Of a DNA stretch of 64,000 nucleotides, positions 1 through 13,052 are shown piece after piece. The notes under the pieces are model-generated. The model saw nothing but the letters and a program-made list of their open reading frames with translations. It was not told the origin of the DNA and ran no database searches. This stretch comes from Candidatus Omnitrophota bacterium (GTDB taxonomy: Bacteria > Omnitrophota > Gorgyraeia > Gygaellales > Profunditerraquicolaceae), in NCBI GenBank assembly GCA_022710715.1, contig JAKLGJ010000001.1:298041-362040 (forward strand), read 5' to 3'. The position numbers and the translations under genes are program-made. The number at the start of each line of letters is the position of its first letter. Positions within the stretch are counted from its first letter, which is position 1.

Positions 1-71
1 CCGGCAACGACGGCGGAGAGCAGAAGACAACCGCGCTTTCCACGCAGCAGATCAAACAGGCTACCGCGCAG

Positions 72-2981
72 ATGGTCAGGGCGTATTATTACCGGCTCTT
101 CGGCAGGTTCAACGGTATCGGCCTGATCATCGACGATGATACTGCGGTGGAGCTGGCCAGGTCCATTGTCATTTCCCAGCGCCAGCAGGAGGCGAAAGAT
201 GGTTACGTGGAACCTCCGGCGCAGCAGACCGGATGGTCGCGGGCGTCGAAGGTTGCGCTGGCGCTCGGCGTGCTGGCCGGCGCTGTGGCCGTGGGCAATC
301 TTTTCGAGCACAGCCAGGACGACGGGGTGACCGCGCAGGACCTGGAAGAAGCGCTGTACCTGTTTGGCGAATCGCCCTTTGCCGTATCGGCGCAGCCGAT
401 GGATGACGGCGCCCTGGCATTTGCGCCAGCGGATACCGCGATCCAGGAAGAAGGCAAGCTGCCCATCATCGGCGATATCATCGCATTTTTCGGTTCGTTG
501 ATTGACCCGACCACTTCCATCGAGGCGGTGGGTTCCAACGGCCTGCCCATAACCGTGAGCATGAACAGCACGGTTATTACGGTCGGCGATGTGGGTATGC
601 TGTTTCTTGACCGGGAAACCGGGGTGATCCGTTATACCCGTTATGGTACTATTGCAGGGACCGGCAGCGTTAGGCCCGGAGAGCCGTATTATCAGCAGTA
701 TTACAACGAGATGAGCAAGATGCTGATCTCTTTGAAGACGGGCAATCTGAAGTCCGGAGAATTATCGGTCGGTCAGGAAGAAGACCTGGCCGAGATTATC
801 GGGGAATTCCAGAAATACCACCCGGATTATGCAGGGACCGAATCGTTCACCATCCACTTGTATCATCATGATGACTACATAATGGATGCGCGCAGCATTT
901 CTGTTCACAACGGTGCATATGTTTTGGACAGGCAGACCGGCGAGCTGCACTATATGGATTTTATAACGCGTAAGTCGCTGCAGCCGGAGGATAAAGATTA
1001 CCGCAATAAGATTCAAGAGATGCGCGAGAAACTGTCTGATCTTCGTCTGGGAACACCGGTAAATAAGCATCTCCTGGCGAAAATGGAAGCCGAATTGCAA
1101 GAATATCTGGATTTGGGAGCGGTCAGGGTTACTTCTCCGGGAGGTTTGACTGTCGGAGTGAGCATGAACGTGACCACGATCACCATCGAAGAGGTCAGCC
1201 CGATCTCTCTGGACCGCCGGAACGGAACGATCAGCTACGGGGTGTACTGGACCGGCGAAACGCGCCGGGTAGAGCCGACGGACCAGGATTATCCGCGCTG
1301 GCTGGGCGAAATGACCGGCAGTATCGACAGTATGCTCAAGGCGAACCTGGAGACCATGATCTTGAGTTTCGACGACCAGGCCTTCATGTACAATGTGCTC
1401 GACGAGCTGCGCGGGTACGAGAATAACACTGCACTGTCCGGGGACGGCGGGAGCGAGAAGACGCCGGAGATGCGGGATGTTTACGCCGTGGATATTCCGG
1501 GAAGAGTCAAGGAAGACGCGGATAAGAAGCAGCACAGCGGCAGTTCCGGCGGATCGAGTTCGAGCTCCGGCGAATCGAGCTCCAGCCTGGGCGGCAAGGT
1601 GAATACCGGGGTCGAAGATTTCGACGGCGGGCAGACCAGAGAAGAAGTTCAGGCGCAGAAGCTGGCCGGCGCCGTAAAAGAATACCTGGAAAGCCGGTTC
1701 GCGGCGCTTGCTGCTGATTTTGCCCATCTCGACTGGACGAGCACTCAAGAAGAATTTTTCAGCCGGGTGAAAGATGAATTGAAAGAAAACCTGGGAATTA
1801 TTTCCATCGAGAAAGAAGGCTTTGCGAAATGGCTGCTCTATTCGCGTTACGGCGACAGGATCATCGTGATCATGACTATCGGGGGGATCAGCGTGGAAGT
1901 CGATAAGCTGTATTTGTTCTCCCGGCTGCTGCAAAGAGGTAACGATAAAGATCGTATGACTGCAGTAGAACAGGTGAGAAGTTTCCGGGATGCCCGGGCA
2001 GTGGAACCGTTGATCCAGGCGCTGGGTGATTCGTACGGAATCCGTATGGAAGCGAAGAATGCTTTGTCGGAAATAGGCGCACCGGCTATCACGGGATTGA
2101 TGCGCGCTGTAAACGACGAGAATGAGTATGTGCGCGAATATGCCGCGGTTTTGCTGGGAGCGCTGGATGCCCGGCAGGCGGTGTATCTTCTGTATGAGTT
2201 GCTGAAGGATCAGGATTATAAGGTCAGAGATGCGGCGCTTTCAACCCTGGTTCTTTTCAACGCGTCCTTGTCCGGAGAACAGCTGTCGGATCTGCTTATT
2301 CGTGAAAAACATCCCAATGATAGGATCAAGTATCTTCTCTACCAGTTGCTGGAAGAAAGTCAGCTCGATGTCTGGATCGCCGGTCTGCAAGGGCCGTCTT
2401 ACGAACTGATGGAGTTGTCGGCGAAAGCTCTGGGTGCTTTGAAGAATGCCCGGGCCATACCGGCTTTGCTCAAGGCGTATGATAAGAACGTCGGCTGGCC
2501 ACAGAAATGGATCGAAGACGCCATAAGCGTCATTGCGAAAGCCAATCCGGATTTCGACCTGGCTAAAGCCAAAGAAGAATACCAAGCCGGCCGCGGGCAG
2601 GACGGAGGAAAGTCGCCGCAAGGGAGCATTCAAACCGCAGCTCCGGAAGATCTCGGAGGTATCGATCTGCGCGCTCTGCCCTTGAACGCTCAACCTGTGC
2701 CTGCAGCGGCAGCGATTGCCGGTTCCCTGATCGCGCCCGCGCAGGTTTCTTTGCAGGACCTGGATAAACAATGGCTTAACATTCAGCGGAAGCTGGCGCA
2801 GGGCCCGATGCCGTATCAGGAGATCAAAGCCTATGTCGCCGCCTGCTGTTCGCAGCAGGAATGCCGCGTGCAGAAGGAAGCGGTGTGCCAGTGGCTGGCG
2901 GATATCCTCAAGCTGGAAGAAGAGGCCGCTGTTTCTACGTCTGTTGAACTGAAAGAGATCCTGGCGCTGGCAGTTTCATAA
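72..2981 (+). CDS. Large (969 aa or more) protein of unknown function. It has two paralogous ~170-aa N-terminal modules, a Ser/Gly-rich linker, an acidic coiled region and C-terminal PBS-lyase-type HEAT repeats. The frame is open back to nt 3, so the gene may be 5'-truncated by the window edge.
   Basis: Long ORF. Repeated motif GLPITVSMNSTVITVGDV...RYTRYGT versus GGLTVGVSMNVTTITIEEV...SYGVYWTG. Low-complexity SGSSGGSSSSSGESSSS segment. HEAT-like repeats (VEPLIQALGDS..., VREYAAVLLGALD..., KVRDAALSTL...). No in-frame stop between nt 3 and the ATG at 72. Confidence 0.5.
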   Translation: MVRAYYYRLFGRFNGIGLIIDDDTAVELARSIVISQRQQEAKDGYVEPPAQQTGWSRASKVALALGVLAGAVAVGNLFEHSQDDGVTAQDLEEALYLFGESPFAVSAQPMDDGALAFAPADTAIQEEGKLPIIGDIIAFFGSLIDPTTSIEAVGSNGLPITVSMNSTVITVGDVGMLFLDRETGVIRYTRYGTIAGTGSVRPGEPYYQQYYNEMSKMLISLKTGNLKSGELSVGQEEDLAEIIGEFQKYHPDYAGTESFTIHLYHHDDYIMDARSISVHNGAYVLDRQTGELHYMDFITRKSLQPEDKDYRNKIQEMREKLSDLRLGTPVNKHLLAKMEAELQEYLDLGAVRVTSPGGLTVGVSMNVTTITIEEVSPISLDRRNGTISYGVYWTGETRRVEPTDQDYPRWLGEMTGSIDSMLKANLETMILSFDDQAFMYNVLDELRGYENNTALSGDGGSEKTPEMRDVYAVDIPGRVKEDADKKQHSGSSGGSSSSSGESSSSLGGKVNTGVEDFDGGQTREEVQAQKLAGAVKEYLESRFAALAADFAHLDWTSTQEEFFSRVKDELKENLGIISIEKEGFAKWLLYSRYGDRIIVIMTIGGISVEVDKLYLFSRLLQRGNDKDRMTAVEQVRSFRDARAVEPLIQALGDSYGIRMEAKNALSEIGAPAITGLMRAVNDENEYVREYAAVLLGALDARQAVYLLYELLKDQDYKVRDAALSTLVLFNASLSGEQLSDLLIREKHPNDRIKYLLYQLLEESQLDVWIAGLQGPSYELMELSAKALGALKNARAIPALLKAYDKNVGWPQKWIEDAISVIAKANPDFDLAKAKEEYQAGRGQDGGKSPQGSIQTAAPEDLGGIDLRALPLNAQPVPAAAAIAGSLIAPAQVSLQDLDKQWLNIQRKLAQGPMPYQEIKAYVAACCSQQECRVQKEAVCQWLADILKLEEEAAVSTSVELKEILALAVS

Positions 2982-2982
2982 A

Positions 2983-3062
2983 GGGGACACAGCATTTTGC
3001 AAAGGGGACAGATCTGCCCGATTTTCTCGACGGAGGGTTTTGGGTGGACCTGTCCCCTTTTA
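2983..3062 (-). repeat. GGGGACA-family ~80-nt intergenic repeat, copy A (reverse orientation), immediately after the stop of the 969-aa ORF
   Basis: The reverse complement matches the consensus AGGGGACAGGTCCACCCAAAAC..CTCCGTCGA.AAAATCG.CAGATGTGTCCCCTTTG.AAA.TGCTGTGTCCCCTT seen at five other sites in this window. Confidence 0.7.
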
Positions 3063-3075
3063 GCTCCCTTTTAGC

Positions 3076-3104
3076 TTGAAAAGCGTTGCCCGGCGGTTTA
3101 TAAT
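3076..3104 (+). promoter_or_regulatory. Sigma-70-type promoter (TTGAAA-N17-TATAAT) whose -10 ends 6 nt before the ATG at 3111, which suggests a leaderless mRNA
   Basis: TTGAAA at 3076-3081, a 17-nt spacer, TATAAT at 3099-3104. No Shine-Dalgarno sequence fits between the -10 and the start codon. Confidence 0.45.
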
Positions 3105-3110
3105 AGAAGG

Positions 3111-4202
3111 ATGAAGAAACTGCCGGGTTTGCTTTTTTTATGCGCTCTGTGCCTTGCTTCTGTGATCGTACCGGTTGCCGCAGCGGAGAATCCTGCCCGG
3201 GAAGCCTCCTTCTACGAGAAACTCTCCAATAACCAGGTGCAGTGCCATCTCTGTCCGTGGGAGTGCGTACTTTCTTCCGGAAAGCGCGGGATCTGCGGGG
3301 TGCGCGAGAACCGCACGGGTACCCTGTACAGCCTTTCTTACGGCCAGCCGGTGTCCCTGCATATCGATCCCATCGAGAAAAAACCCCTGTTCCATTTCCT
3401 GCCCGGCGCAAACGCTTTTTCCATCGCTACTGCCGGCTGTAACCTTAAATGCGGATTCTGTCAGAACTGGGAGATTTCCCAGGCCAGGCCCGAGGAGATC
3501 GTCAGCCAGACCATTCTGCCGTCGGAGCTGGTGGATAAAGTCCAGGCTTCCGGCGCGTATGTCCTGGCGTATACGTATACCGAGCCGACCGTATTCTATG
3601 AATATATGCTGGAGATCGCCGCTCTGGCCAAAGGCCGGGGGATCAGGAATGTGATGCATTCCAACGGCTTTATCCAGGTCTCACCCCTGGAGCAGTTAAC
3701 CCGGTATCTGGATGCCGCGAATATCGATCTTAAAGGTTTCTCCGAGGATTATTACAAGCGCACCTGCCAGGGGCGGCTGGCCCCGGTGCTGGAAAGTTTA
3801 AAAGTTCTAAGGCGTAAGGGAGTGCATCTGGAGATCACCAATCTGGTCTTGCCCGGGTATAACGACGATCCGGCGCAGATTACCCGGATGTGTTTATGGA
3901 TCAAAGAGAACCTGGGCGCGGAGACGCCGGTGCACTTCTCCCGTTTCCATCCCATGTATAAACTTATCGCATTGCAGCCCACGCCGGTGCAAACCCTGGA
4001 GAGAGCCCGGCAGATCGCCATGGATTGCGGTCTGAAGTATGTTTATATCGGCAATGTGCCGGGGCATCCCGCGGAAAATACCTATTGCCCGCGTTGCAGG
4101 AAAAAAGTGATCGAGCGCGCCGGTTATATTGTTTCGGCCGTGCATCTGAAGGCGGGAGCGTGCTCTTTCTGCAATGAACCGATCGAGGGGGTGTGGGAAT
4201 GA
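3111..4202 (+). CDS. AmmeMemoRadiSam-system radical SAM enzyme (PFL-activase-like). It carries an unusual N-terminal Sec-signal-like hydrophobic extension.
   Basis: N-terminal Cys motif CHLCPWEC...GKRGICGVREN. Radical SAM CxxxCxxC motif (AGCNLKCGFCQNWEIS). Family-typical FYEKL start region, preceded by MKKLPGLLFLCALCLASVIVPVAAA. Confidence 0.75.
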   Translation: MKKLPGLLFLCALCLASVIVPVAAAENPAREASFYEKLSNNQVQCHLCPWECVLSSGKRGICGVRENRTGTLYSLSYGQPVSLHIDPIEKKPLFHFLPGANAFSIATAGCNLKCGFCQNWEISQARPEEIVSQTILPSELVDKVQASGAYVLAYTYTEPTVFYEYMLEIAALAKGRGIRNVMHSNGFIQVSPLEQLTRYLDAANIDLKGFSEDYYKRTCQGRLAPVLESLKVLRRKGVHLEITNLVLPGYNDDPAQITRMCLWIKENLGAETPVHFSRFHPMYKLIALQPTPVQTLERARQIAMDCGLKYVYIGNVPGHPAENTYCPRCRKKVIERAGYIVSAVHLKAGACSFCNEPIEGVWE

Positions 4203-5668
4203 AGATCTGGAGAGCGGTGGCCGCGCTGATGCTGGTTGCGCAGGCGCCCGCGTTCGCCGCAGGCACGCAGGAGCATGTTAAATTTCCGGACGCCGCCGGG
4301 ACTTTTTATGCGTCCGATCCGGTGGAGTTGTCCGCAAGTATCGAGACGTATCTGACTAAAGCCGAAACAGTGTCTTTGCCGGGGCCGATCTTTGCCGTCA
4401 TCGTTCCGCACGCCGGGTATCCGTTCTCCGGGCAGGTAGCCGCGCAGGCCTACAAGCAGCTTCTTTCCCGGTCGTATAAAACCGTGGTGATCCTGGCCTC
4501 AACCCATACCGAGGGGTTCCAGGGGATAGCGGTGTATCCGCGGGGTCTTTTCCGCACTCCGCTGGGGGATATTCCCGTGGATCAGGAATTCGCGCTGCAG
4601 TTGATGTCCAGGCATAAAGAGATCTTCGCCGATGAGCGACTGTTCGACCGGCAGCATCCGATCGAGGTACAGCTGCCTTTCTTGCAGAAGACATTGAACG
4701 ATTTCCGGATCGTGCCACTGGTCATGGGGGATGTCAGCCGGGCTTCCTGCACGTACCTGGCGGAATCTCTGGCGGAGGTTATCGGCAAACGCAACGACGT
4801 GTTGCTTGTCGCCTCCTCCGATATGTATCACGGTTATTCCATTCCCGACGCGCAGCGTATCGACCGGGTAACGTTGTCTTATCTCGAGAAGATGGACGCG
4901 GCGGGCGTATTTCAGGCTTTGTCCGAAGGAAAAGCGCAGTTGTGCGGCGGGTTACCGGTGTATGTGACGCTGTTAACCGCGAAGAATGCGGGGCATAACC
5001 TGCTGCGGGTCCTGGATCATACGAATTCCGCGCAGGTAACCGGCCGTACTGCCGACGGAGAGTGGACTGTCGGGTACAGCAGCTCGGTTATCGATCAGCC
5101 AAAACAAGAGGGAGCCATGTTCAACCGAACACAGAGAAAGAGATTGCTGCAGATCGCCCGGACTTCCATCGAAGCGTATTTGAAAAACGGCAAGCCGATG
5201 GAGGTAAGCGAGAAAGATGCGTTATTGAATCAGACTATGGGTGCGTTCGTCACCTTGCATGAACACGGAGAGCTGCGCGGATGCATCGGCACGATGGTCG
5301 GCAGGCAGCCGTTGTATCTGACCGTCAGAGATATGGCTATCGAAGCGGCTGTAGGCGATCCGCGTTTTTCTCCTCTAAGGCCGGCGGAACTTAAAAATGT
5401 GGAGATCGAGATCTCCGCGTTATCGCCTCTGGAGAAAGTTAAATCCGCCGACGATATCGTCATGGGTAAACACGGGGTGATCCTGAAGAGAGGATTCAGC
5501 AGCGGGGTATTCCTTCCCCAGGTTGCCACGGAGACCGGCTGGACCAGGGAACAATTCCTCTCGCAATTGTGCGCCCAGAAGGCCGGATTGGCCGCGGACG
5601 CTTGGAAGGACCCGGCTACCGAACTGTATGTTTTTACCGCCGAAGTCTTCTCGGAGAAGGAAGAGTAA
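4199..5668 (+). CDS. Fusion of a MEMO1-family protein (AmmeMemoRadiSam protein B) and an AMMECR1 domain (protein A), with an N-terminal signal-peptide-like segment. The start overlaps the upstream stop as ATGA.
   Basis: N-half: GTFYASDP...VIVPHAGYPFSGQVAAQAYK (MEMO1 hallmark). C-half: LHEHGELRGCIGTMVG...PRFSPL (AMMECR1 hallmark). N-terminus MKIWRAVAALMLVAQAPAFAAG looks like a Sec signal. The ATG at 4199-4201 overlaps the TGA at 4200-4202. Confidence 0.75.
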   Translation: MKIWRAVAALMLVAQAPAFAAGTQEHVKFPDAAGTFYASDPVELSASIETYLTKAETVSLPGPIFAVIVPHAGYPFSGQVAAQAYKQLLSRSYKTVVILASTHTEGFQGIAVYPRGLFRTPLGDIPVDQEFALQLMSRHKEIFADERLFDRQHPIEVQLPFLQKTLNDFRIVPLVMGDVSRASCTYLAESLAEVIGKRNDVLLVASSDMYHGYSIPDAQRIDRVTLSYLEKMDAAGVFQALSEGKAQLCGGLPVYVTLLTAKNAGHNLLRVLDHTNSAQVTGRTADGEWTVGYSSSVIDQPKQEGAMFNRTQRKRLLQIARTSIEAYLKNGKPMEVSEKDALLNQTMGAFVTLHEHGELRGCIGTMVGRQPLYLTVRDMAIEAAVGDPRFSPLRPAELKNVEIEISALSPLEKVKSADDIVMGKHGVILKRGFSSGVFLPQVATETGWTREQFLSQLCAQKAGLAADAWKDPATELYVFTAEVFSEKEE

Positions 5669-5674
5669 GCCGGT

Positions 5675-6319
5675 ATGATCAGGACACTGGCGGGAATGTT
5701 CGTTACGGGGGTGCTTTTCTCCAGCGGGCCGTGTCTGTTGAGTTGCGGCCCGGCGGTAGTTTGTTATTGCGCGGGAGCGCGCACCACCACGCGTTCCGGG
5801 ATTATCGGGTATGTTCTGTTTTGCCTGGCCCGCAGCGGGGTGTATTGTCTTTTGAGCCTGGCAGTGTTCTTTTTAGGCGAACTGGCCGCGCGAAATTCGC
5901 TATCGGCCGTCAGCCGGTATGTTTATCCCGTTGCCGGGGCCGGATTGATCGTCCTGGGCGCGCTGATGGCAGTGCAGCGTTTTAAAGCGCGCGGCGCGGC
6001 GAAAGAGCCGATCCGCGCTCGAGACGCGACGAATCTGTTCCTGCTGGGCTGTGTCTACGCGGCGGTTCCCTGTGCTCCTTTCTGGGCGCTGCTTTCGTAT
6101 ATCGGGTTGTATTCCCGCACCTGGGTGGATACGCTGGGTTATACGCTGGCTTTTGCCGCGGGCACATTTATCTCGCCTTTGCTGCTGGCGGTGATACTTT
6201 CCGCGCGCGCTAACGCCCTGTGGCAGGATAAGCGCCGCAAACTGCAGATGGTAATGAGCGCGGCCAGCGGGCTGGTGATGATCATTCTGGGTATCGATTT
6301 CATACGGAGGGCATTCTGA
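5675..6319 (+). CDS. Polytopic membrane protein with Cys-rich TM1 (GPCLLSCGP), possibly a CcdA/DsbD-like thiol-disulfide transporter
   Basis: About 6 predicted hydrophobic helices. Paired Cys in the first helix and conserved Cys later (VPCAPFW). Placed 7 nt after the AmmeMemo fusion gene. Confidence 0.3.
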   Translation: MIRTLAGMFVTGVLFSSGPCLLSCGPAVVCYCAGARTTTRSGIIGYVLFCLARSGVYCLLSLAVFFLGELAARNSLSAVSRYVYPVAGAGLIVLGALMAVQRFKARGAAKEPIRARDATNLFLLGCVYAAVPCAPFWALLSYIGLYSRTWVDTLGYTLAFAAGTFISPLLLAVILSARANALWQDKRRKLQMVMSAASGLVMIILGIDFIRRAF

Positions 6320-7074
6320 TGCACAGATTTTTTTGCGCGGACAGCGATATCGGCGAGGGTTTGATCCATATCCGGGATCGTCAGCAATTGCACCATATTA
6401 AAGACGTGTTGCGGCTCAAAGAAGGCAAATCCGTGACGGTGTGCGATACCGCGGGGAATGAATATGCTGCGACGATCAAAAGCGTGTCCGCGCAGGAGAT
6501 CGTATGCGCGATTAAAAGTAAACGCGCGCGCAGCGCACAGGATCAGGCGTTGATCGCGGTAGCCTGCGCTATCCCCAAACAGTCGCGCATGGACGATATG
6601 ATCGATAAGCTTACCCAGCTGGGCGTTGACAGTATCATGCCCTTGATCACGCACCGGGTGATCGTTAAACTTGACGCTGCCAAGAAACTTGAGCGCCAGG
6701 CTCGCTGGCAGAAGATCGCCGCCAGCGCCAGCAAGCAGAGCCAGAGGACTATTGTCCCGGTGGTGGAAGAAATAATGTCGTTCGACGAAATGCTGGCTGC
6801 CAGCGCCGGGTTCGAGCTCAAGCTTATCCCGACGCTCGACGGAAGTCGGGTGCTTTTGCAGGAAGCGCTGCGCCAGGGGGGCGTCTGTTCGCGCAGCGTG
6901 ATCGTCGCTATCGGCCCGGAAGGGGATTTCACTCCTGAAGAGGTCGAACGCGCTTTACAGGCGGGGTTCCAGCCGGTAAGTTTCGGCACGCAGGTGCTGC
7001 GGGTGGAGACCGCCGCGGTCTATGCGGCCAGCGTGCTGGGGTATGTGTTTCGCGGCCAGGGCAGGGGCGTGTAA
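6319..7074 (+). CDS. rsmE: 16S rRNA (uracil1498-N3)-methyltransferase RsmE
   Basis: The overall sequence pattern is typical of the RsmE family (PUA-like N-terminus, SPOUT C-terminus with GPEGDFTPEE). Confidence 0.75.
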   Translation: MHRFFCADSDIGEGLIHIRDRQQLHHIKDVLRLKEGKSVTVCDTAGNEYAATIKSVSAQEIVCAIKSKRARSAQDQALIAVACAIPKQSRMDDMIDKLTQLGVDSIMPLITHRVIVKLDAAKKLERQARWQKIAASASKQSQRTIVPVVEEIMSFDEMLAASAGFELKLIPTLDGSRVLLQEALRQGGVCSRSVIVAIGPEGDFTPEEVERALQAGFQPVSFGTQVLRVETAAVYAASVLGYVFRGQGRGV

Positions 7075-7077
7075 ACG

Positions 7078-8346
7078 ATGAAAGTCAAATTCCACACCCT
7101 CGGCTGCAAGGTGAACCAGTACGAAACCCAGCGCATCCGGGAAGCGTTCCTCGCCCGGGGACTGACCGAAGCTTCCGCCGCGGATAAAGCGGATATCTAT
7201 ATCGTCAATACCTGCACGGTTACCCATAAAGCCGATCGCGAATCGTTATACTGGATCCATCGCAGTCACCGGGAGAATCCCGGAGCTCCGATCATCGTGA
7301 CCGGATGCATGGCCGCTTTCGATCTGAAGCTGCTCAAGGCGCAGGCCGGGGTGCGCTGCGTGGTGGGAAATGAGCGCAAGCTTGAGTTGCCGGATATCTG
7401 CCGCCGGTTTTTGCCGGCATCGCGCCGTAAGCGGGCTGCCGCGATTGGGCCGCCGCCTGCCGGGATCAGCTTTTTCGAAGGGCACACCCGGGCTTTTCTC
7501 AAGATCCAGGACGGTTGCAATAATCGCTGCAGCTACTGCAAGGTGGCTTTGGTCCGGGGAGCCTCGCGCAGCCGGTCGCAGGACGAGATCGTCGACGAAG
7601 CGCGGCAATTGGTCGCGCATGGTTTCCGGGAGATCGTGCTCACCGGGATATGTCTGGGCGCGTACGGCCGGGATGTACAGCCGAAGCAGGATCTCGCCAG
7701 TTTGATCGGCGCGCTGGAAACGCTTCCCGGCCTGGAACGCGTCAGGTTGAGCTCTATCGAAGCCGGGGATGTCACTCCGGGCTTGATCGCGGCGCTGGCG
7801 GGTTCGCGCGTTATGTGCCGGCACCTGCATATTCCTATCCAGAGCGGAGACGATCAGATCCTCAAAGCGATGCGGCGCAGATATACTGCCGCCGATTACG
7901 CCCGGTTGATCCGCAGGATCAGAAAGGCTGTTCCCGGTGTCGCCATCACCACCGATGTGCTGGTGGGATTTCCCGGGGAAGAAGAACGGCATTTTCAGAA
8001 TACCCTTAAACTGGTTCGCGCGATCAAACCTTCCGGCGTGCATATTTTTCCTTACAGCCCGCGTCCGGGCACCGCGGCGTTCGGCTTGAAAGAGCCTTGG
8101 GCCGGCGCGCAGACGGTAAAAGAAAGAATGCGCCGGCTGGAAGCAGCGGCTGAAAAGCTGCGCGTAGCTTACCGGAAGAAATTCCTCGGTCGCACAGTTG
8201 CGGTTTTGTTCGAATCCCGCCTTAAAGAAGACCCGCAATGCTGGGAGGGTCATACCGACACGTACCTGAAGGTGCGCCTGCGCAGCCGCAGGAACCTGGA
8301 GAACCGCACCCTGCAGGTCAGATTGACCCGGGATTGCATTGGTTAA
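7078..8346 (+). CDS. mtaB: tRNA methylthiotransferase of the MiaB/MtaB family (MtaB-like, no obvious TRAM extension)
   Basis: N-terminal MTTase domain (FHTLGCKVNQYET). Radical SAM motif CNNRCSYC. Confidence 0.7.
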   Translation: MKVKFHTLGCKVNQYETQRIREAFLARGLTEASAADKADIYIVNTCTVTHKADRESLYWIHRSHRENPGAPIIVTGCMAAFDLKLLKAQAGVRCVVGNERKLELPDICRRFLPASRRKRAAAIGPPPAGISFFEGHTRAFLKIQDGCNNRCSYCKVALVRGASRSRSQDEIVDEARQLVAHGFREIVLTGICLGAYGRDVQPKQDLASLIGALETLPGLERVRLSSIEAGDVTPGLIAALAGSRVMCRHLHIPIQSGDDQILKAMRRRYTAADYARLIRRIRKAVPGVAITTDVLVGFPGEEERHFQNTLKLVRAIKPSGVHIFPYSPRPGTAAFGLKEPWAGAQTVKERMRRLEAAAEKLRVAYRKKFLGRTVAVLFESRLKEDPQCWEGHTDTYLKVRLRSRRNLENRTLQVRLTRDCIG

Positions 8347-8347
8347 A

Positions 8348-8407
8348 GGGGACGTTCCCCAAGGTACCACCCCTGTGACCAGGGGTGGTACCTTGGGGAA
8401 CGTCCCC
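8348..8407 (+). repeat. REP palindrome pair (BIME-like): GGGGACGTTCCCCAAGGTACCACCCCTG, a 5-nt loop, and its reverse complement
   Basis: A perfect ~28-nt inverted repeat immediately after the mtaB stop. The same unit occurs at 29009, 29736 and 32589. Confidence 0.8.
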
Positions 8408-8564
8408 ATAAGAGACTTGACACCGGGTAGAAAGAGTGTTAGACTAAACTGTTGCAAAATCCGTTATTTCCATTTATGCGCGGCTGGGGAATGTTCATAG
8501 CCGCCGCTTTATCTTTATGCCCTGCCATAAACGGCAGGTTACAGGCCCGAAGGGAGTGATTAAT

Positions 8565-8726
8565 TTGCCTAAAGTTGAAATCAGAGAAGGAGACTCGTTT
8601 GAATCGGCTATGCGCAGGTTCAAAAAGCAGATCGAACAGGAAGGAATTCTGCGGGAAGTAAGAGACCGCAAGCATTATCAGAAGCCCAGCGAGAAGAAGC
8701 GAAAGAAGATGCGTGAAAGAAGATAA
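8565..8726 (+). CDS. rpsU: 30S ribosomal protein S21
   Basis: The TTG start is preceded by GGGAGTGA. The product is [48 protein letters not shown]. The ORF track begins at an upstream in-frame ATG (8517), which would add a non-conserved N-terminus. Confidence 0.8.
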
Positions 8727-8728
8727 CC

Positions 8729-9655
8729 ATGCCTTGTGCGATTTCCACCTCCTGGAATGCGTTCCGGCATACCGACGGCGAACAACTCATCCGCGAACTG
8801 CAAGAGCTGGGATTCACCGCTGTAGAGTTGAGCTTCAATCTGACATCCGAGATGGTTGCCGCGATAGAGCGGCTGGTCGCCCGACAGGTTATTTCCGTTT
8901 GCAGTCTGCATAATTTCTGCCCGATTCCGGAAGGGGTCCCGCGCCACGAAGCGCTGCCCGATTATTATTCTCTTGCGTCACTCGATACCGAAGAACGCTT
9001 ACGCGCCGTTAAACAAACCAAGCTGACTATCGATGCTGCCTGTCGCATAGGCGCTCGCGCGGTGGTCATTCACAGCGGACGCGTGGAGATACAGGATCGG
9101 ACCAGGGCGTTATGCGAGCTCTATACCCGGGGAGGAACGCAGACCCGGCAATTCCAGGATTTAAGGGATGAAATGCGCCGCGAGCGCGCGCAACTCAAGC
9201 AGTCGTTCCTGGACAGCGCTTTGCGCAGCCTGGATGAGCTCAATGCCTATGCCTGTCAGCGTAGAATGAACCTGGGTATCGAAACCCGGTTCTATTACCG
9301 GGAGATCCCTTTTCTGGATGAAGTGGGGATGATCCTGGATGCGTTCAAGGATTCGCGGGTGTTTTACTGGCATGATACCGGCCATGCGCAATTGATGGAG
9401 CATCTCGGGTTGATTGACCGCCAGGAAACGTATCTTGACCGCTACGCTCAAAGGCTCCTGGGCATGCATCTGCACGATATTCGCGGTTGTGCCGATCATC
9501 AGCCGCCGCCCGGCGGAGATATTGATTTTAAACGCTTTCGCCCGTATCTGAACCACCAAACGTTGAAGGTCATCGAAGTGCATCATCCTGCTACAGCCGT
9601 TCAGGTCCAGCAAAGCAAACGGTATGTGGAGGAGGTATTCGATGGAACGGTTTAA
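8729..9655 (+). CDS. Sugar phosphate isomerase/epimerase (xylose-isomerase-like TIM barrel, AP endonuclease family 2 fold)
   Basis: General TIM-barrel family pattern (ELSFNLT, VVIHSG, WHDTGHAQL, LHLHD). The 3' end overlaps the downstream MEMO1 gene. Confidence 0.55.
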   Translation: MPCAISTSWNAFRHTDGEQLIRELQELGFTAVELSFNLTSEMVAAIERLVARQVISVCSLHNFCPIPEGVPRHEALPDYYSLASLDTEERLRAVKQTKLTIDAACRIGARAVVIHSGRVEIQDRTRALCELYTRGGTQTRQFQDLRDEMRRERAQLKQSFLDSALRSLDELNAYACQRRMNLGIETRFYYREIPFLDEVGMILDAFKDSRVFYWHDTGHAQLMEHLGLIDRQETYLDRYAQRLLGMHLHDIRGCADHQPPPGGDIDFKRFRPYLNHQTLKVIEVHHPATAVQVQQSKRYVEEVFDGTV

Positions 9656-10469
9656 TATCAGAAAAGCCGCCGTCGCCGGACAGTTTTATCCCGCAAGCGC
9701 CGAGAGCATTCGCAAGCAGATCGAAGAGTGGAGAATCCTTCCCGGCAAAAAAAGCCCGGTTATCGGTTGCATGTTGCCGCATGCCGGTTACATGTATTCC
9801 GGCAAGGTGGCGGCGCAGACCCTGGCCCATATCGATCTCGATCAGGTCAAGACCGTGGTGTTGATGGGGCCTAACCATACCGGTTACGGAGTGCCGTTCA
9901 GCATCATGGCGGAAGGCATCTGGACGACACCTCTGGGGCAGGTTGAGATCGATAACGCTCTGGCGCTGGAGATACTCAAGGGAAGCGAATATTTCGAAAC
10001 AGACAGTATGGCCCACGCCTATGAGCATTCCCTGGAAGTCGAGCTGCCGCTGCTGCAGTTCTTCAAAAACGCATTCCAGATCGTGCCGATCGTGTTCGGA
10101 TCGGATGATCTCAAAGCCTTGCAATCGACCGGCCAGGCGATCGCCGCGGCGATCGAGCGGCTGAAATTGCGGGGAACGGTTCTGTTGGCAGCGAGTTCGG
10201 ATATGACGCATTATGAACCGGCCCAGCAGGCAAAGCGGAAAGACCAGCTGGCTTTACAGCAGATCATGCAGCTTGACGAGCAGGGATTATTGGAAAAAGT
10301 CCGCAGTTTCGATATTTCCATGTGCGGGTACGCTCCGGTGATCTCCATGCTTGCGGCGGCTAAGGCCTTAGGCGCGCATAAGGCACAAGTGATAACCTAT
10401 TCAACCAGCGGTGACGTCACCGGCGATGACTCCAGTGTGGTGGGGTATGCCGGCGTGCTCATCTATTAG
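9642..10469 (+). CDS. MEMO1-family protein (second AmmeMemoRadiSam protein-B-like paralog, with no signal peptide)
   Basis: AGQFYPASAESIRKQI...GCMLPHAGYMYSGKVAAQTL, colinear with the N-half of the fusion at 4199..5668. An in-frame ATG 18 nt upstream (9624) is an alternative start. Confidence 0.7.
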   Translation: MERFNIRKAAVAGQFYPASAESIRKQIEEWRILPGKKSPVIGCMLPHAGYMYSGKVAAQTLAHIDLDQVKTVVLMGPNHTGYGVPFSIMAEGIWTTPLGQVEIDNALALEILKGSEYFETDSMAHAYEHSLEVELPLLQFFKNAFQIVPIVFGSDDLKALQSTGQAIAAAIERLKLRGTVLLAASSDMTHYEPAQQAKRKDQLALQQIMQLDEQGLLEKVRSFDISMCGYAPVISMLAAAKALGAHKAQVITYSTSGDVTGDDSSVVGYAGVLIY

Positions 10470-10474
10470 ACGAC

Positions 10475-10840
10475 ATGGACGAAAAAGACAAGAAGGTCGA
10501 TAACGACTGGAAAGAAAAAGTAGCGAAAGAAAAAACAGCCGAACCGCAGTCCGACGTTACGCCGGATCAGGAAGGCGGCCTGCCGGAACAGCCTGATTTC
10601 AGTTTTTTTGTCAGTTCTCTGGCTTTGCAGGCGTCCATAGCCATGGGAGTGATGCCCAATCCTATGACCAACAAGAAAGAGGAGAATATCCCGCAGGCCC
10701 GGTTACTGGTCGATACCCTGGCGATGCTCAAGGAAAAGACCCACGGCAATTTGAGCAGCGAAGAAGACAGCCTGCTGGAGAATCTGCTCTATGAATTGCG
10801 CATGCAGTATGTAGCCAAGACCAAAGGAGGCAGTTCATGA
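10475..10840 (+). CDS. DUF1844-family small acidic protein
   Basis: Composition and motifs (FFVSSLALQASIAMG...NKKEENI...LRMQYV) resemble DUF1844. Confidence 0.45.
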   Translation: MDEKDKKVDNDWKEKVAKEKTAEPQSDVTPDQEGGLPEQPDFSFFVSSLALQASIAMGVMPNPMTNKKEENIPQARLLVDTLAMLKEKTHGNLSSEEDSLLENLLYELRMQYVAKTKGGSS

Positions 10841-10988
10841 TCGATAAGGAACTCCTTGATATTCTGGCCTGTCCCGCCTGCAAGGGGGGGGTTGAGCTCA
10901 AAGACGAAAAGATCGTCTGCAAGAAGTGCGGCAAGAAATATCCGGTGCGTGACGGTATCCCGGTCATGCTTATCGATGAAGCCGAATA
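10837..10988 (+). CDS. Trm112-family small zinc-ribbon protein (DUF343). This ORF is absent from the supplied ORF track because it is only 50 aa.
   Basis: [50 protein letters not shown]. Its ATG overlaps the upstream stop as ATGA. Confidence 0.65.
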
Positions 10989-11002
10989 ATCCCGCAAAGC
11001 GT

Positions 11003-11437
11003 ATGAAGAAAATACTGGTTATTCATGGGCCGAACCTGCAGCTTCTGGGTCAGCGCGAACCCGGGGTGTACGGCACGGTAACGCTGGCGCAGATCAACGC
11101 GCAGCTCAAGAAGCTGGCCGCGAAGAAGAAAGTCCGGTTAACCATCCTGCAATCGAATATCGAGGGCGCGCTGGTGGACGCTCTTGGCAAGAGCAAAGGC
11201 AGGTTCGACGGTATTTTGATCAATCCCGCAGCGTATACCCATACCAGCGTAGCCATCAGGGACGCCATAGCCGCATGCGGCGTTCCTGCAATAGAAGTCC
11301 ATCTTTCCAATACCCACGCCAGGGAGCAGTTCCGTCATATCTCTTTGATCAGTCCGGTAGCGAGAGGCACGATTATGGGATTCGGCCCGCAGAGCTACTA
11401 TCTTGGCCTGGAAGCGCTCATAGGCATTCTTTCTTAA
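11003..11437 (+). CDS. aroQ: Type II 3-dehydroquinate dehydratase
   Basis: [24 protein letters not shown]...[13 protein letters not shown]. The ORF track's 5' extension (10856) crosses the Trm112 gene in another frame and is unlikely to be real. Confidence 0.8.
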
Positions 11438-11449
11438 TCTTTTTTCTTC

Positions 11450-12505
11450 ATGAATAAACGCATTCAACAGGTTCTGGCGAGCTTAAAGAAACAAAAGATC
11501 GACGCCGCATTTTTTTCGTCCGCACCCGCTGTTTCTTATCTGACCGGTTACAAGAGCCGGGATTCGTATTTGCTGGTTTCCCGGCAGCAGCAGCTGTATA
11601 TGACCGACAGCCGGTATACTGCGGAAGCCCGGCAGCATCTCAAAGGTTTTACCGTGGAGCAGGTCCGGGAATCCGGACTGTCCAGTCTGGCGCTGACCTG
11701 CGCCAGGTTGAAATTCAAGACCCTGGGGTTTGAAAACCGCTCTTTGAGTTACGCGGATTACCAGAGAATGAAGGAAAAGCTTCCCCCGGATCTGGTAGTA
11801 ACCGGCATATCCGGGGTGGTAGAGCAGTTGCGTCAGATCAAAAGCCCGGCAGAATTGAGAATAATACGTCAGGCCACCCGGATCACCCTGGAAGCCTATT
11901 CCTATATAAAGCAATTCATCCGGCCGGGAATACGGGAGATTGAGCTGGCCGGGGAGCTGGAGCGTTTTATCCGTTATCATGGGGCAGCCTGCGCTTCTTT
12001 CGATATTATTGTGGCTTCCGGCCCCAATTCCAGCTTTCCGCACCACCTGACTTCCGCGCGCAGGGTGGAGGCGGATGAACCGGTAATGATCGATATGGGC
12101 GTTGAGGTGGATGGCTATAAATCTGACTTGACAAGGGTTTTCTTCTCCGGTAAAATAAAAACTCTTGCTAACCGGTTGTATTCTGTGGTGCTTACAGCCC
12201 AGCAAAAAGCCATTGCCCGGGTTAAACCGGGTGTCGCGCTTCAGGATATCGACCAGGCTGCCCGTCACTATCTGGATAGCCGGGGAGTGGGAAAATATTT
12301 TCTACATAGCCTGGGGCACGGGGTGGGGTTGGAAGTACATGAGCAGCCTTATGTGAACTGCCGGGCCCGGGGAGTGTTGAAGCCGGGAATGGTGTTCACC
12401 GTGGAGCCGGCAGTGTACCTGCCGGGCAAGTTCGGGATTCGTATCGAAGATATGGTTGTGGTAACCAGGAAAGGATGTGAGGTGATCAGTGGCTCTGTCA
12501 ATTAA
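11450..12505 (+). CDS. Xaa-Pro aminopeptidase (M24 family)
   Basis: Creatinase-like N-terminal domain plus the M24 pita-bread metal-binding motifs ([13 protein letters not shown]). Confidence 0.75.
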
Positions 12506-13052
12506 CGATTTAAAGAACGGATTAACTATTCTTGTTGAAGGTGAAGCGTGGATGGTCATCGATTCACAGTTCGTCAAACCCGGCAAGGGGGCGGCGTTTA
12601 CCCGTTGCCGTTTGCGCAATATGAAGACCGGCAATGTGCTCGACCGCACTTTCCGCGGCGATGAGCGTATTGACGAAGCATACATAGAGGAATCCAAGCT
12701 GCAGTATCTGTATAAATCCGGGGAAATGTATTATTTCATGGATCAGGAGAACTACGAAGAAAAACCTATCCCCGCAAGCGTTTTGGGAGATAAAGTGAAA
12801 TTCCTCAAGGATAACATGGACGCGGTAGCATTGTCTTACAAGGATGAGGTTTTGACCGTCAATCTTCCCAATTTCGTGGTGTATACCATTACCCACACCG
12901 AACCCGGGATCAAAGGCGATACCGCTAAGAGCGGGACCAAGCCGGCGACCATTGAATCGGGCGCGACCATTCAGGTTCCCCTGTTTGTCGATGAGGGCGA
13001 GAAGATCAAGGTTGATACCCGCACCGGCAGTTACGTAGAACGCGCCAATTAA
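12489..13052 (+). CDS. efp: Elongation factor P
   Basis: [23 protein letters not shown]...[21 protein letters not shown]. Confidence 0.85.

What the first reader, a model, noticed from the sequence alone, without database searches (positions are those of the whole stretch)
3076..6319. AmmeMemoRadiSam locus with a MEMO1-AMMECR1 fusion, Sec-signal-like N-termini on the radical SAM and fusion proteins, and a CcdA-like membrane partner
The genes at 3111..4202 (radical SAM), 4199..5668 (MEMO1 fused to AMMECR1, ATGA-coupled) and 5675..6319 (Cys-rich polytopic membrane protein) form one tight unit. Both soluble-type enzymes begin with a classic n-h-c signal peptide (MKKLPGLLFLCALCLASVIVPVAAA|EN and MKIWRAVAALMLVAQAPAFA|AG). 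The family-conserved N-terminus starts only after the predicted cleavage site. The AmmeMemoRadiSam system is itself functionally uncharacterised and is expected to be cytoplasmic, and a [4Fe-4S] radical SAM enzyme exported via Sec would be very unusual. Together with a DsbD/CcdA-like electron conduit this hints at a membrane-associated or extracytoplasmic variant of the system. A second standalone MEMO1 paralog sits 4 kb downstream (9642..10469), overlapping a TIM-barrel sugar-phosphate isomerase gene.
Basis: partly seen in the sequence, partly recalled or inferred. Interest (0 to 1): 0.62.

Follow-up and report, generated by a model that had tools for sequence, protein, structure and literature searches.

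The report
Export-tagged radical SAM enzyme system
An Omnitrophota operon makes a radical SAM enzyme and its Memo-AMMECR1 partner with secretion signals, next to a CcdA-like membrane protein, which suggests that this normally cytoplasmic iron-sulfur chemistry works outside the cell membrane.

Summary
Genes 3111..4202 (AmmeMemoRadiSam radical SAM enzyme, rSAM), 4199..5668 (Memo-AMMECR1 fusion) and 5675..6319 (six-helix DsbD_2 protein) form one tight unit in a Candidatus Omnitrophota genome.

The N-terminal signals are not start-codon artefacts. 109 of 120 rSAM homologues and all 115 anchorable fusion homologues (of 120) keep them. Both have a signal-peptidase-I-type profile, with a small residue at -1 in 97-98%.

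New findings:
- The window belongs to a large export-tagged subfamily. In 49 of 83 related loci from many phyla the rSAM carries a twin-arginine (Tat) signal, and the fusion partner carries Sec or lipoprotein signals.
- Natural gene fusions join this rSAM to DsbD_2, to FMN_bind, or to NapH-like membrane electron-transfer modules.
- DsbD_2 lies beside 21 of 26 non-Tat rSAM genes and beside 0 of 49 Tat-type genes.

Best reading: this is an extracytoplasmic AmmeMemoRadiSam variant, and DsbD_2 is its transmembrane reductant conduit. How a Sec-routed enzyme would obtain Fe-S clusters, SAM and a low-potential electron outside the cell is unexplained.

I found no description of this in the searchable literature. 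Verdict: a new variant of a known kind, supported by computation only.

The parts
3076..3104 (+). Sigma-70-like promoter, TTGAAA-17-TATAAT. It ends 6 nt before the rSAM ATG, which implies a leaderless or near-leaderless transcript.
   Evidence: 11 of 12 matches, the best site in 2700..8800. Sequence read.
3111..4202 (+). AmmeMemoRadiSam radical SAM enzyme, 363 aa.
   Evidence: TIGR04337 385.6 bits against cutoff 220, and PF04055. 100% identical to an NCBI Candidatus Omnitrophota protein. Twelve invariant Cys, including the CX3CX2C motif at C110/C114/C117.
3111..3185 (+). Predicted Sec-type signal peptide of the rSAM: MKKLPGLLFLCALCLASVIVPVAAA|EN. Inferred cleavage after Ala25.
   Evidence: The family profile has P at -5, I/L/A at -3 and a small residue at -1 in 98%. 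There is no RR and no lipobox in the window protein. The family model starts at residue 33.
3438..3461 (+). Radical SAM cluster motif CNLKCGFC (Cys110, Cys114, Cys117).
   Evidence: Invariant in 20 of 20 aligned orthologues.
4199..5668 (+). Memo-AMMECR1 fusion protein, 489 aa. Translationally coupled to the rSAM gene by an ATGA overlap.
   Evidence: PF01875 at residues 30-295 and PF01871 at residues 317-484. TIGR04336 236 bits and TIGR04335 192 bits.
4199..4258 (+). Predicted Sec-type signal peptide of the fusion: MKIWRAVAALMLVAQAPAFA|AG.
   Evidence: Family profile [C/S]-[F/Y]-A|[Q/E]-[D/E]-[I/V]-K, with a small residue at -1 in 97% of 115 homologues. No lipobox and no RR.
5675..6319 (+). Six-helix DsbD_2 / CcdA-like membrane protein, 214 aa. 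Cys20 and Cys24 (GPCLLSCGP) sit in TM1 and Cys133 (VPCAP) in TM4.
   Evidence: PF13386 54.8 bits. C20, C24, P132 and C133 are invariant in 20 orthologues. The only PDB profile hit is CcdA 5VKV, with both PC motifs in register. Six hydrophobic segments; K/R-rich loops 1, 3 and 5 imply N-out/C-out.
6319..7074 (+). RsmE 16S rRNA methyltransferase. Co-oriented and syntenic; probably not part of the system.
   Evidence: PF04452 and TIGR00046. Synteny is kept even where rSAM and DsbD_2 are absent (L003).
7078..8346 (+). MtaB tRNA methylthiotransferase. Syntenic; probably not part of the system.
   Evidence: TIGR01579 425 bits against cutoff 357.
9642..10469 (+). Standalone Memo paralogue without a signal peptide. 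Presumed cytoplasmic.
   Evidence: TIGR04336 314 bits and PF01875 261.6 bits. N-terminus MERFNIRKAAVAGQFYP. The similar Memo-only gene in L011 supports the 9642 start.

Best explanation
**Proposal.** The operon encodes an export-targeted variant of the AmmeMemoRadiSam system.

**Shown.**
- Both enzymes are translated with N-terminal signals that match the Sec / signal-peptidase-I pattern.
- The signals are conserved in character across the clade.
- The rSAM keeps all of its cluster-binding and other conserved cysteines.
- A DsbD_2 gene with CcdA-like Pro-Cys motifs is co-transcribed, conserved in synteny, and elsewhere fused to the same rSAM.

**Inferred.**
- The rSAM and the Memo-AMMECR1 fusion are delivered to the outer face of the cytoplasmic membrane or the periplasm.
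- DsbD_2 relays reducing equivalents from the cytoplasm through Cys20/Cys24 and Cys133. This would keep the twelve conserved cysteines of the unfolded, Sec-exported rSAM (and possibly its partner) reduced, so that the metal sites can be loaded and kept working.
- The rSAM, which resembles a PflA-type activase, then acts with or on the equimolar Memo-AMMECR1 partner on an envelope-located substrate.
- Sister lineages export the same enzyme pre-folded through Tat. They pair it with NapH-like or FMN_bind one-electron conduits instead of DsbD_2.

The substrate and the chemistry remain unknown.
For: **Signals are real.**
- 109 of 120 rSAM homologues and all 115 anchorable fusion homologues (of 120) carry them.
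- The c-region profile fits the (-3,-1) rule.
- The promoter is placed for a start at ATG 3111.

**Export is a subfamily trait.**
- 49 of 83 related loci have an RR or KR Tat motif (S/T-R-R-x-F-L-K) followed by an AxA site on the rSAM. So do 26 of 150 representatives.
- Partner fusions in those phyla have Sec signals or lipoboxes.
- Tat h-regions are less hydrophobic than those of the window clade: 1.72 against 2.79.
- In a neighbour-joining tree the exported forms group apart from the cytoplasmic ones.

**Domain fusions place the rSAM beside extracytoplasmic modules** (Pfam, topology). All of these score above the TIGR04337 cutoff.
- Signal + beta-propeller + rSAM (P0251).
- Signal + CBM + rSAM (P0263).
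- TM + FMN_bind + rSAM, with an SGAT flavinylation motif and no helix in between (P0252, P0258).

**DsbD_2 is a partner.**
- The order rSAM, fusion, DsbD_2 is conserved in about 20 Omnitrophota loci.
- DsbD_2-rSAM fusions exist: P0250, and P0264 from Kiritimatiellota.
- P0274 combines DsbD_2, FMN_bind, NapH-like and rSAM domains.
- A DsbD_2-FMN_bind-Fer4_5 gene lies upstream of the rSAM in L056 and L082.
- DsbD_2 is present in 21 of 26 non-Tat loci and 0 of 49 Tat loci. Fisher p = 3e-14, not corrected for phylogeny.
- The Cys motifs align with the CcdA active-site cysteines.
Against: - No known pathway inserts Fe-S clusters into a Sec-exported protein. All characterised periplasmic Fe-S proteins use Tat (established knowledge).
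- No periplasmic source of SAM is known.
- A thiol-disulfide relay (about -250 mV) cannot supply the roughly -450 mV electron needed for SAM cleavage. The catalytic reductant in the window is therefore unaccounted for.
- No thioredoxin-like partner gene is present in the locus.
- The rSAM h-region is long, 18 uncharged residues. It also carries a semi-conserved A-C-F-Y-L-P motif (Cys in 61%), which is odd for a disposable signal and fits an uncleaved anchor or a lipobox.
- K/R counts on the two sides of the rSAM h-region are about equal, so charge bias does not fix the orientation.
- No predictor (SignalP, DeepTMHMM) and no experiment was available.
- The CcdA sequence match is weak (E = 0.41). 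The AF2 model was too poor to test the fold (pLDDT 48).
Confidence: 0.5

Rival explanations
1. The N-terminal segments are uncleaved membrane anchors, inserted N-out/C-in or lying in the plane of the membrane. They would tether both enzymes to the cytoplasmic face, where Fe-S assembly, SAM and flavodoxin are available. DsbD_2 would then be a docking or redox partner in the membrane.
For: - This solves the cofactor, SAM and reductant problems (established biochemistry).
- The rSAM h-region is 18 residues long, enough to span a bilayer, and has a semi-conserved ACFYLP motif.
- K/R counts on the two flanks are similar (sequences).
- One triple-fusion relative, P0256, has a TM with 1 K/R before and 4 after, which fits N-out/C-in.
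Against: - A small residue at -1 in 97-98%, Pro at -5 and an acidic or Gln residue at +1 are signal-peptidase features. An anchor has no reason to keep them.
- The fusion's h-region is only about 10-14 residues in the window, too short for a stable helix across the membrane.
- Sister clades carry unambiguous Tat signals and lipoboxes.
- Some relatives are fused to extracytoplasmic-type domains.
- N-tails carry two positive charges.
Confidence: 0.2
2. The enzyme is still exported folded and loaded with cofactors through Tat. The window clade would simply have an RR-less Tat signal, or would ride out with a Tat-targeted partner.
For: - The window clade is nested among Tat-type sequences in the tree.
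- Some Omnitrophota (L034, L043, L047) keep RR signals on the orthologue.
- KR variants occur in one Thermodesulfobacteriota group.
- This route would avoid cluster assembly outside the cell.
Against: - There is no RR or KR pair in the window or in most of the clade. The n-region is M-K-x-x-x-R/K.
- h-region hydrophobicity is Sec- or SRP-like and well above the Tat set: 2.79 against 1.72, p = 8e-12.
- The switch coincides with the gain of DsbD_2. That is expected if cysteines are exposed during unfolded export.
Confidence: 0.1
3. DsbD_2 is an unrelated small-molecule or metal transporter of the LysE/TauE superfamily. It would be merely syntenic, or would carry a substrate or cofactor such as a metal or SAM, rather than electrons.
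For: - Sources annotate relatives as sulfite exporter TauE/SafE.
- There is a weak NCBIfam hit to the ArsG permease: 41 bits against a cutoff of 200.
- No thioredoxin-like partner is present.
- The CcdA match is only E = 0.41.
Against: - The invariant Pro-Cys motifs in TM1 and TM4 align with the CcdA redox cysteines.
- It is covalently fused to the rSAM and to FMN_bind / NapH-like electron-transfer modules in independent lineages. That argues for a redox role and against chance synteny.
Confidence: 0.15
4. The extensions are start-codon artefacts, and the real proteins begin at internal codons.
For: A GTG codon for Val18 exists inside the rSAM extension. A few database homologues are called short (P0090, P0102, P0105, P0113).
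Against: - Met at -33 in 74% and Lys/Arg at -32 in 77% of homologues, at a fixed distance from the domain.
- The reading frame stays open and hydrophobic in 109 of 120 rSAM homologues and in all 115 anchorable fusion homologues, despite sequence turnover.
- The promoter ends 6 nt before ATG 3111.
- The ATGA coupling fixes the fusion's start.
Confidence: 0.02

Closest known systems
AmmeMemoRadiSam system (NCBIfam TIGR04335 / TIGR04336 / TIGR04337; function uncharacterised)
   Same: All three family models are matched above their cutoffs and the genes are adjacent. The rSAM keeps CX3CX2C and the N- and C-terminal Cys motifs of the family.
   Different: - Both proteins carry export signals.
- The A and B components are fused.
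- A DsbD_2 membrane protein is a conserved fourth component.

About half of the representative relatives (75 of 150) are short cytoplasmic forms that start MKEALFY.
CcdA / DsbD transmembrane thiol-disulfide electron transporters (for example Thermus CcdA, PDB 5VKV)
   Same: - Six hydrophobic helices.
- Pro-Cys motifs in TM1 and TM4 that align with CcdA's redox cysteines.
- N-out/C-out topology by the positive-inside rule.
   Different: - It belongs to PF13386 (DsbD_2), not PF02683.
- It has a third invariant Cys (CxxxC in TM1).
- No thioredoxin-like acceptor gene is nearby.
- The presumed acceptor is a radical SAM enzyme.
- The sequence match to CcdA is not significant on its own (E = 0.41).
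NapH/NosR/PceC-like and FMN_bind flavinylated extracytosolic electron-transfer systems (Meheust et al. 2021, PMC8238504)
   Same: Relatives of the window rSAM are fused to, or encoded next to, Fer4_5 NapH-like and FMN_bind modules. The logic is the same: a membrane conduit feeds an enzyme outside the cytosol.
   Different: The window has none of these modules, only DsbD_2. That paper does not mention Memo, AMMECR1 or radical SAM enzymes.
Pyruvate formate-lyase activating enzyme (PflA; PDB 3C8F/3CB8), the nearest solved structure
   Same: Radical SAM core, residues 106-309.
   Different: The match is only 37.8 bits. PflA is cytoplasmic and lacks both the N-terminal CX2CX3CX9C motif and the C-terminal 2xCX2C motif.
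Tat-exported Fe-S proteins (the general class)
   Same: Sister clades of this rSAM carry canonical Tat signals.
   Different: The window protein has no twin arginine and has a Sec-like, highly hydrophobic h-region.

Membership tests
AmmeMemoRadiSam system | Radical SAM component matches TIGR04337 above its cutoff and has CX3CX2C. | tested here: met
   385.6 bits against 220. C110, C114 and C117 are invariant.
AmmeMemoRadiSam system | Memo-like component (protein B, TIGR04336 / PF01875). | tested here: met
   236.3 bits against cutoff 26; PF01875 188.8 bits.
AmmeMemoRadiSam system | AMMECR1-like component (protein A, TIGR04335 / PF01871). | tested here: met
   192.1 bits against cutoff 99; PF01871 196.6 bits.
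AmmeMemoRadiSam system | The three components are encoded together. | tested here: met
   ATGA-coupled adjacent genes. The arrangement is conserved in about 20 Omnitrophota loci.
Sec / signal peptidase I signal peptide | Positive n-region, uncharged h-region, and a c-region with small residues at -3 and -1. | tested here: met
   Window sequences VAAA|E and AFA|A. Clade profile: a small residue at -1 in 97-98%, Pro at -5.
Sec / signal peptidase I signal peptide | A trained predictor calls it, and cleavage and export are shown by experiment. | not testable with these tools
   No SignalP, DeepTMHMM or experiment was available.
Tat signal peptide | Twin-arginine motif (S/T-R-R-x-F-L-K) in the n-region. 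| tested here: not met
   No RR in either window N-terminus. The motif is present in 49 of 83 related loci.
Bacterial lipoprotein signal | Lipobox [LVI][ASTVI][GAS]C at the end of the h-region. | tested here: not met
   Absent from both window proteins. Present in 33 of 111 rSAM and 9 of 115 fusion homologues, and clear in fusions from other phyla.
CcdA/DsbD-type thiol-disulfide transporter | Match to a Pfam DsbD-clan model. | tested here: met
   PF13386, 54.8 bits against 24.9. Some orthologues also list PF02683.
CcdA/DsbD-type thiol-disulfide transporter | One conserved Cys next to Pro in TM1 and one in TM4, in a six-helix inverted repeat. | tested here: met
   C20, C24 and C133 are invariant with flanking Pro. 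They align with the CcdA PC motifs. Six hydrophobic segments.
CcdA/DsbD-type thiol-disulfide transporter | Significant sequence or fold similarity to a solved CcdA or DsbD. | tested here: inconclusive
   5VKV is the only PDB hit, but at E = 0.41. The AF2 model has pLDDT 48 and could not be used.
CcdA/DsbD-type thiol-disulfide transporter | A thioredoxin-fold acceptor on the outside. | tested here: not met
   No thioredoxin-like gene in 1..13000. The acceptor is inferred to be the rSAM.

The most novel reading that the evidence does not exclude
Radical SAM chemistry takes place outside the cytoplasm. A whole subfamily of AmmeMemoRadiSam enzymes would be exported, mostly through Tat, and powered by dedicated transmembrane electron conduits (NapH-like, FMN_bind, DsbD_2). 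In the Omnitrophota clade of this window the apo-enzyme would go through Sec and acquire or maintain its Fe-S sites outside the cell, with DsbD_2 keeping its cysteines reduced. That would be a route for extracytoplasmic Fe-S enzyme maturation not known in any organism.
Probability: 0.3. Interest if true: 0.9.

Novelty: new variant of a known kind. Interest (0 to 1): 0.68.

Why it matters
**Assumptions it challenges.** Radical SAM enzymes are treated as strictly cytoplasmic, because they need Fe-S assembly, SAM and a low-potential reductant. The comparative evidence here points to a large, multi-phylum subfamily of one radical SAM family that is targeted outside the membrane and is genetically wired to transmembrane electron conduits.

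**What would follow if it is true.**
- It would widen the range of places where radical chemistry can occur.
- It would imply unknown supply routes for SAM and, in the Sec-type clade, for Fe-S clusters.

**A handle on an open question.** The conserved but uncharacterised Memo and AMMECR1 proteins have human homologues linked to disease. This finding predicts an envelope-located substrate and an obligatory redox partner for them, and both predictions can be tested.

**A natural comparison.** The contrast between Tat-type loci (no DsbD_2) and Sec-type loci (DsbD_2 present) is a ready-made experiment.

Tried and rejected
- **Start-codon artefact.** Rejected on conservation of Met and Lys at a fixed distance, the open hydrophobic frame in homologues, the promoter position and the ATGA coupling.
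- **Lipoprotein reading for the window.** Rejected, because neither protein has a lipobox. It remains possible for about 30% of rSAM orthologues.
- **Tat reading for the window.** No RR or KR pair, and Sec-like hydrophobicity.
- **Fold test of DsbD_2.**
  - The allowed 5-sequence alignment gave pLDDT 48, too poor for a fold search, so none was run.
- **Literature.**
  - Searches for AmmeMemoRadiSam; radical SAM with twin-arginine; Omnitrophota with twin-arginine; flavinylation with radical SAM; PF13386; and AMMECR1 with radical SAM found nothing on exported forms.
  - The most relevant paper, Burroughs et al. 2019, J Biol Chem 294:10211 (PMC6664185), is not held. From memory its abstract links Memo to nucleotide-base and isoprenoid modification. 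I could not check whether it mentions export signals.
- **RsmE and MtaB as system members.** Rejected. The pair stays next to the fusion in L003, where rSAM and DsbD_2 are missing. From my own knowledge, rsmE-mtaB adjacency is widespread in bacteria.
- **More paralogues in the window.** A search for a second rSAM or AMMECR1 found none.
- **Failed call.** One Pfam call failed because my minus-strand locus coordinates were in reverse-complement numbering. It was repeated with plus-strand ORFs only.

Full report
**What is there**

The window comes from a Candidatus Omnitrophota genome. The rSAM protein is 100% identical to an NCBI MAG protein that lies on a 1.62 Mb contig.

Five same-strand genes are packed without gaps.

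| Gene | Coordinates | Junction |
|---|---|---|
| rSAM | 3111..4202 | ATGA overlap with the next gene |
| Memo-AMMECR1 fusion | 4199..5668 | 6-nt gap to the next gene |
| DsbD_2 membrane protein | 5675..6319 | 1-nt overlap with the next gene |
| RsmE | 6319..7074 | 3-nt gap to the next gene |
| MtaB | 7078..8346 | end of the unit |

Family assignments are unambiguous.
- rSAM: TIGR04337, 385.6 bits against a cutoff of 220.
- Fusion: TIGR04336, 236 bits, and TIGR04335, 192 bits.
- Membrane protein: PF13386 DsbD_2, 54.8 bits against 24.9.

The curated models start at residue 33 of the rSAM and residue 30 of the fusion.

A near-consensus promoter, TTGAAA-17-TATAAT, lies at 3076..3104 and ends 6 nt before ATG 3111. 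This explains the absence of a well-spaced Shine-Dalgarno sequence and supports that start codon.

**The signals are real and clade-wide**

- Among the 120 closest rSAM homologues (61-68% identical apart from P0001; the named ones are Omnitrophota), 109 have a hydrophobic N-terminal extension without RR.
- All 115 anchorable homologues of the fusion (of the 120 closest) have one.
- The extensions have almost no sequence identity. The mature rSAM domain averages 69% column identity and has twelve invariant cysteines.

A position profile anchored on the conserved domain gives these patterns.
- **rSAM:** M, K/R, three residues, R/K, then 18 positions with essentially no charged residues. After that come Pro at -5, Ile/Leu at -3, a small residue at -1 (98%, Ala in 78%), then Gln/Glu/Asp at +1.
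- **Fusion:** [Cys/Ser]-[Phe/Tyr]-Ala (small in 97%), then Gln/Glu, Asp/Glu, Ile/Val, Lys.

These are signal-peptidase-I features, which a simple anchor has no reason to keep. Neither window protein has RR or a lipobox. About 30% of rSAM orthologues do have a lipobox and could be lipoproteins.

**The wider picture**

A scan of one genome per GTDB species returned 80 loci. I called ORFs in these and in three extra contigs and classified them.

- In 49 of the 83 loci the orthologous rSAM carries a classic twin-arginine signal, for example ...TRREFLK..., ...SRRTFIRAGAGALALF..., MDRRDFLKFS..., followed by an AxA site. One group has KR variants.
- These loci come from Thermodesulfobacteriota, Syntrophobacterales, Desulfovibrionaceae, Acidobacteria, Aminicenantes, Zixibacteria, KSB1, Lentisphaeria, Phycisphaerae and some Omnitrophota (L034, L043, L047).
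- Their Memo-AMMECR1 partners are mostly fusions too. They carry Sec signals or clear lipoboxes, for example LVPGC|AEGG, FSPGC|GAES and LTQGC|SGKD.

Among 150 representatives of 50%-identity clusters, the rSAM N-termini sort as follows.

| N-terminal class | Count |
|---|---|
| Short cytoplasmic form (MKEALFY...) | 75 |
| Tat-type | 26 |
| Sec- or TM-like | 13 |
| Other extension (domain fusions and short non-hydrophobic tails) | 33 |
| Partial match | 3 |

In a neighbour-joining tree the exported forms group apart from the cytoplasmic ones, and the Sec-like Omnitrophota block sits among Tat-type sequences (no support values). Tat h-regions are much less hydrophobic than those of the window clade: 1.72 ± 0.33 against 2.79 ± 0.32. 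That matches the known difference between Tat and Sec signals.

Export tagging is therefore a subfamily trait, not an oddity of this genome. What is peculiar to the window's clade is the Sec-type route.

**The membrane partner**

- The order rSAM, fusion, DsbD_2, RsmE, MtaB recurs in about 20 Omnitrophota loci. In L003 both rSAM and DsbD_2 are missing while fusion, RsmE and MtaB remain.
- Twenty DsbD_2 orthologues share only 26-42% identity with the window protein. They still keep Cys20 and Cys24 (GPCLASCGP, TM1) and Pro132-Cys133 (LPCAP, TM4) invariant.
- A profile of them finds only one PDB entry, Thermus CcdA 5VKV. The match is weak (E = 0.41) but full length, and both Pro-Cys motifs align with the CcdA redox cysteines.
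- Six hydrophobic segments with K/R-rich loops 1, 3 and 5 give an N-out/C-out topology.

The strongest evidence for a functional link is a set of natural gene fusions. All of them score above the TIGR04337 cutoff.

| Protein(s) | Architecture |
|---|---|
| P0250; P0264 (Kiritimatiellota, NOY82962.1) | DsbD_2 fused in front of the rSAM |
| P0274 | DsbD_2 + FMN_bind + NapH-like Fer4_5 + rSAM |
| P0247, P0248 | FMN_bind + NapH-like + rSAM |
| P0252, P0258 | One N-terminal helix, then FMN_bind (with the SGAT flavinylation motif), then rSAM, with no helix in between |
| P0251, P0263 | Signal peptide, then a beta-propeller or CBM domain, then rSAM |

In the genomic loci the same theme recurs.
- A NapH-like gene (two Fer4_5 motifs plus a ferredoxin domain) sits directly upstream of Tat-type rSAM genes in eight loci.
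- A DsbD_2-FMN_bind-Fer4_5 gene sits upstream of the rSAM in L056 and L082.
- DsbD_2 is present in 21 of 26 loci with a non-Tat hydrophobic rSAM N-terminus and in 0 of 49 Tat loci. Fisher p = 3e-14, not corrected for phylogeny. The independent origins number perhaps three to five.

**Mechanism proposed**

Shown:
- Export-type signals on both enzymes.
- Retained cluster ligands in the rSAM.
- A co-transcribed, CcdA-like membrane protein that independent lineages fuse to the same enzyme.

Inferred:
- Both enzymes work at the outer face of the membrane or in the periplasm.
- DsbD_2 passes thiol reducing power outward.
- The correlation with signal type suggests why. A Tat substrate leaves folded, with its clusters in place. 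A Sec substrate leaves unfolded with twelve free cysteines, which must stay reduced before any metal site can form.
- NapH-like and FMN_bind modules in the other lineages would deliver the one-electron reductant for SAM cleavage.

Unexplained for the window:
- Where Fe-S clusters, SAM and a roughly -450 mV electron come from outside the cell.
- Why the rSAM h-region keeps an A-C-F-Y-L-P motif (Cys in 61%).

These gaps keep the uncleaved-anchor rival alive, in which the enzyme stays on the cytoplasmic face.

**Comparison with what is known**

The system is a member of AmmeMemoRadiSam on all defining features. It differs by its export signals, the A/B fusion and the DsbD_2 partner.

The fusion itself is common and is already annotated as such. 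The nearest solved structure for the rSAM is PflA, at 37.8 bits.

Flavinylated extracytosolic electron-transfer systems (PMC8238504) provide the closest functional analogy. That paper does not mention Memo, AMMECR1 or radical SAM enzymes. I found no paper that describes exported radical SAM enzymes or Tat-tagged AmmeMemoRadiSam proteins. Burroughs et al. 2019 could not be read.

**Verdict**

It extends to a multi-phylum export-tagged subfamily with dedicated membrane redox partners. This is a new variant of a known kind. All the evidence is computational. Interest 0.68.

Noticed in passing
window 3076..3111: The near-consensus promoter TTGAAA-17-TATAAT ends 6 nt before the rSAM ATG. The operon transcript is therefore probably leaderless or nearly so. 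The GAAGG just upstream is too close to the ATG to act as a normal Shine-Dalgarno sequence.
   Followed up: partly
window 8729..10840: A second Memo gene without a signal (9642..10469) overlaps the end of a xylose-isomerase-like TIM-barrel gene (8729..9655) and is followed by a DUF1844 gene (10475..10840). A similar Memo-only gene lies downstream of MtaB in L011 (9392..10279). No second rSAM or AMMECR1 was found in the window.
   Followed up: partly
P0139-P0232 and others (homologues of window 4199..5668): Many database homologues of the fusion are called with an extra conserved N-terminus, MENVNFAE(K/R)KL..SG(I/N)K. This is the alternative-frame reading of the conserved 3' end of the upstream rSAM gene, so it is an over-called start and not a real domain.
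   Followed up: partly
L021, L023, L024, L026, L027, L031, L039 (about 60 residues upstream of the rSAM domain): One Thermodesulfobacteriota / delta-proteobacterial group has Lys-Arg instead of Arg-Arg in an otherwise canonical Tat motif (T-K-R-x-F-L-K/Q/R-F-C).
   Followed up: no
P0256 (838 aa): A triple fusion of rSAM, Memo and AMMECR1 sits behind a single N-terminal helix with 1 K/R before and 4 after. That suggests a cytoplasm-facing, membrane-anchored version in some lineages.
   Followed up: partly
P0251 (919 aa) and P0263 (681 aa): AmmeMemoRadiSam rSAM domains are fused behind a signal peptide and a beta-propeller (Reg_prop / PorZ-like) or a CBM11-like domain. This architecture hints at a cell-surface or polysaccharide-associated role.
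   Followed up: no
window 72..2981; L001 10344..13485: A 969-aa HEAT-repeat protein lies upstream of the operon. A 2425-aa HEAT-repeat protein lies downstream of the equivalent operon in L001. Large HEAT-repeat proteins recur near this locus in Omnitrophota.
   Followed up: no
L002 1..4519 and L003 1..3835: In two related Omnitrophota contigs the operon is preceded by a type II secretion / type IV pilus-like cluster (T2SSE, T2SSF, a prepilin-like N_methyl protein and small ORFs).
   Followed up: no
window 6319..8346: The RsmE-MtaB pair stays attached to the locus across Omnitrophota, even where rSAM and DsbD_2 are absent (L003). This looks like inherited synteny, not a functional link.
   Followed up: partly
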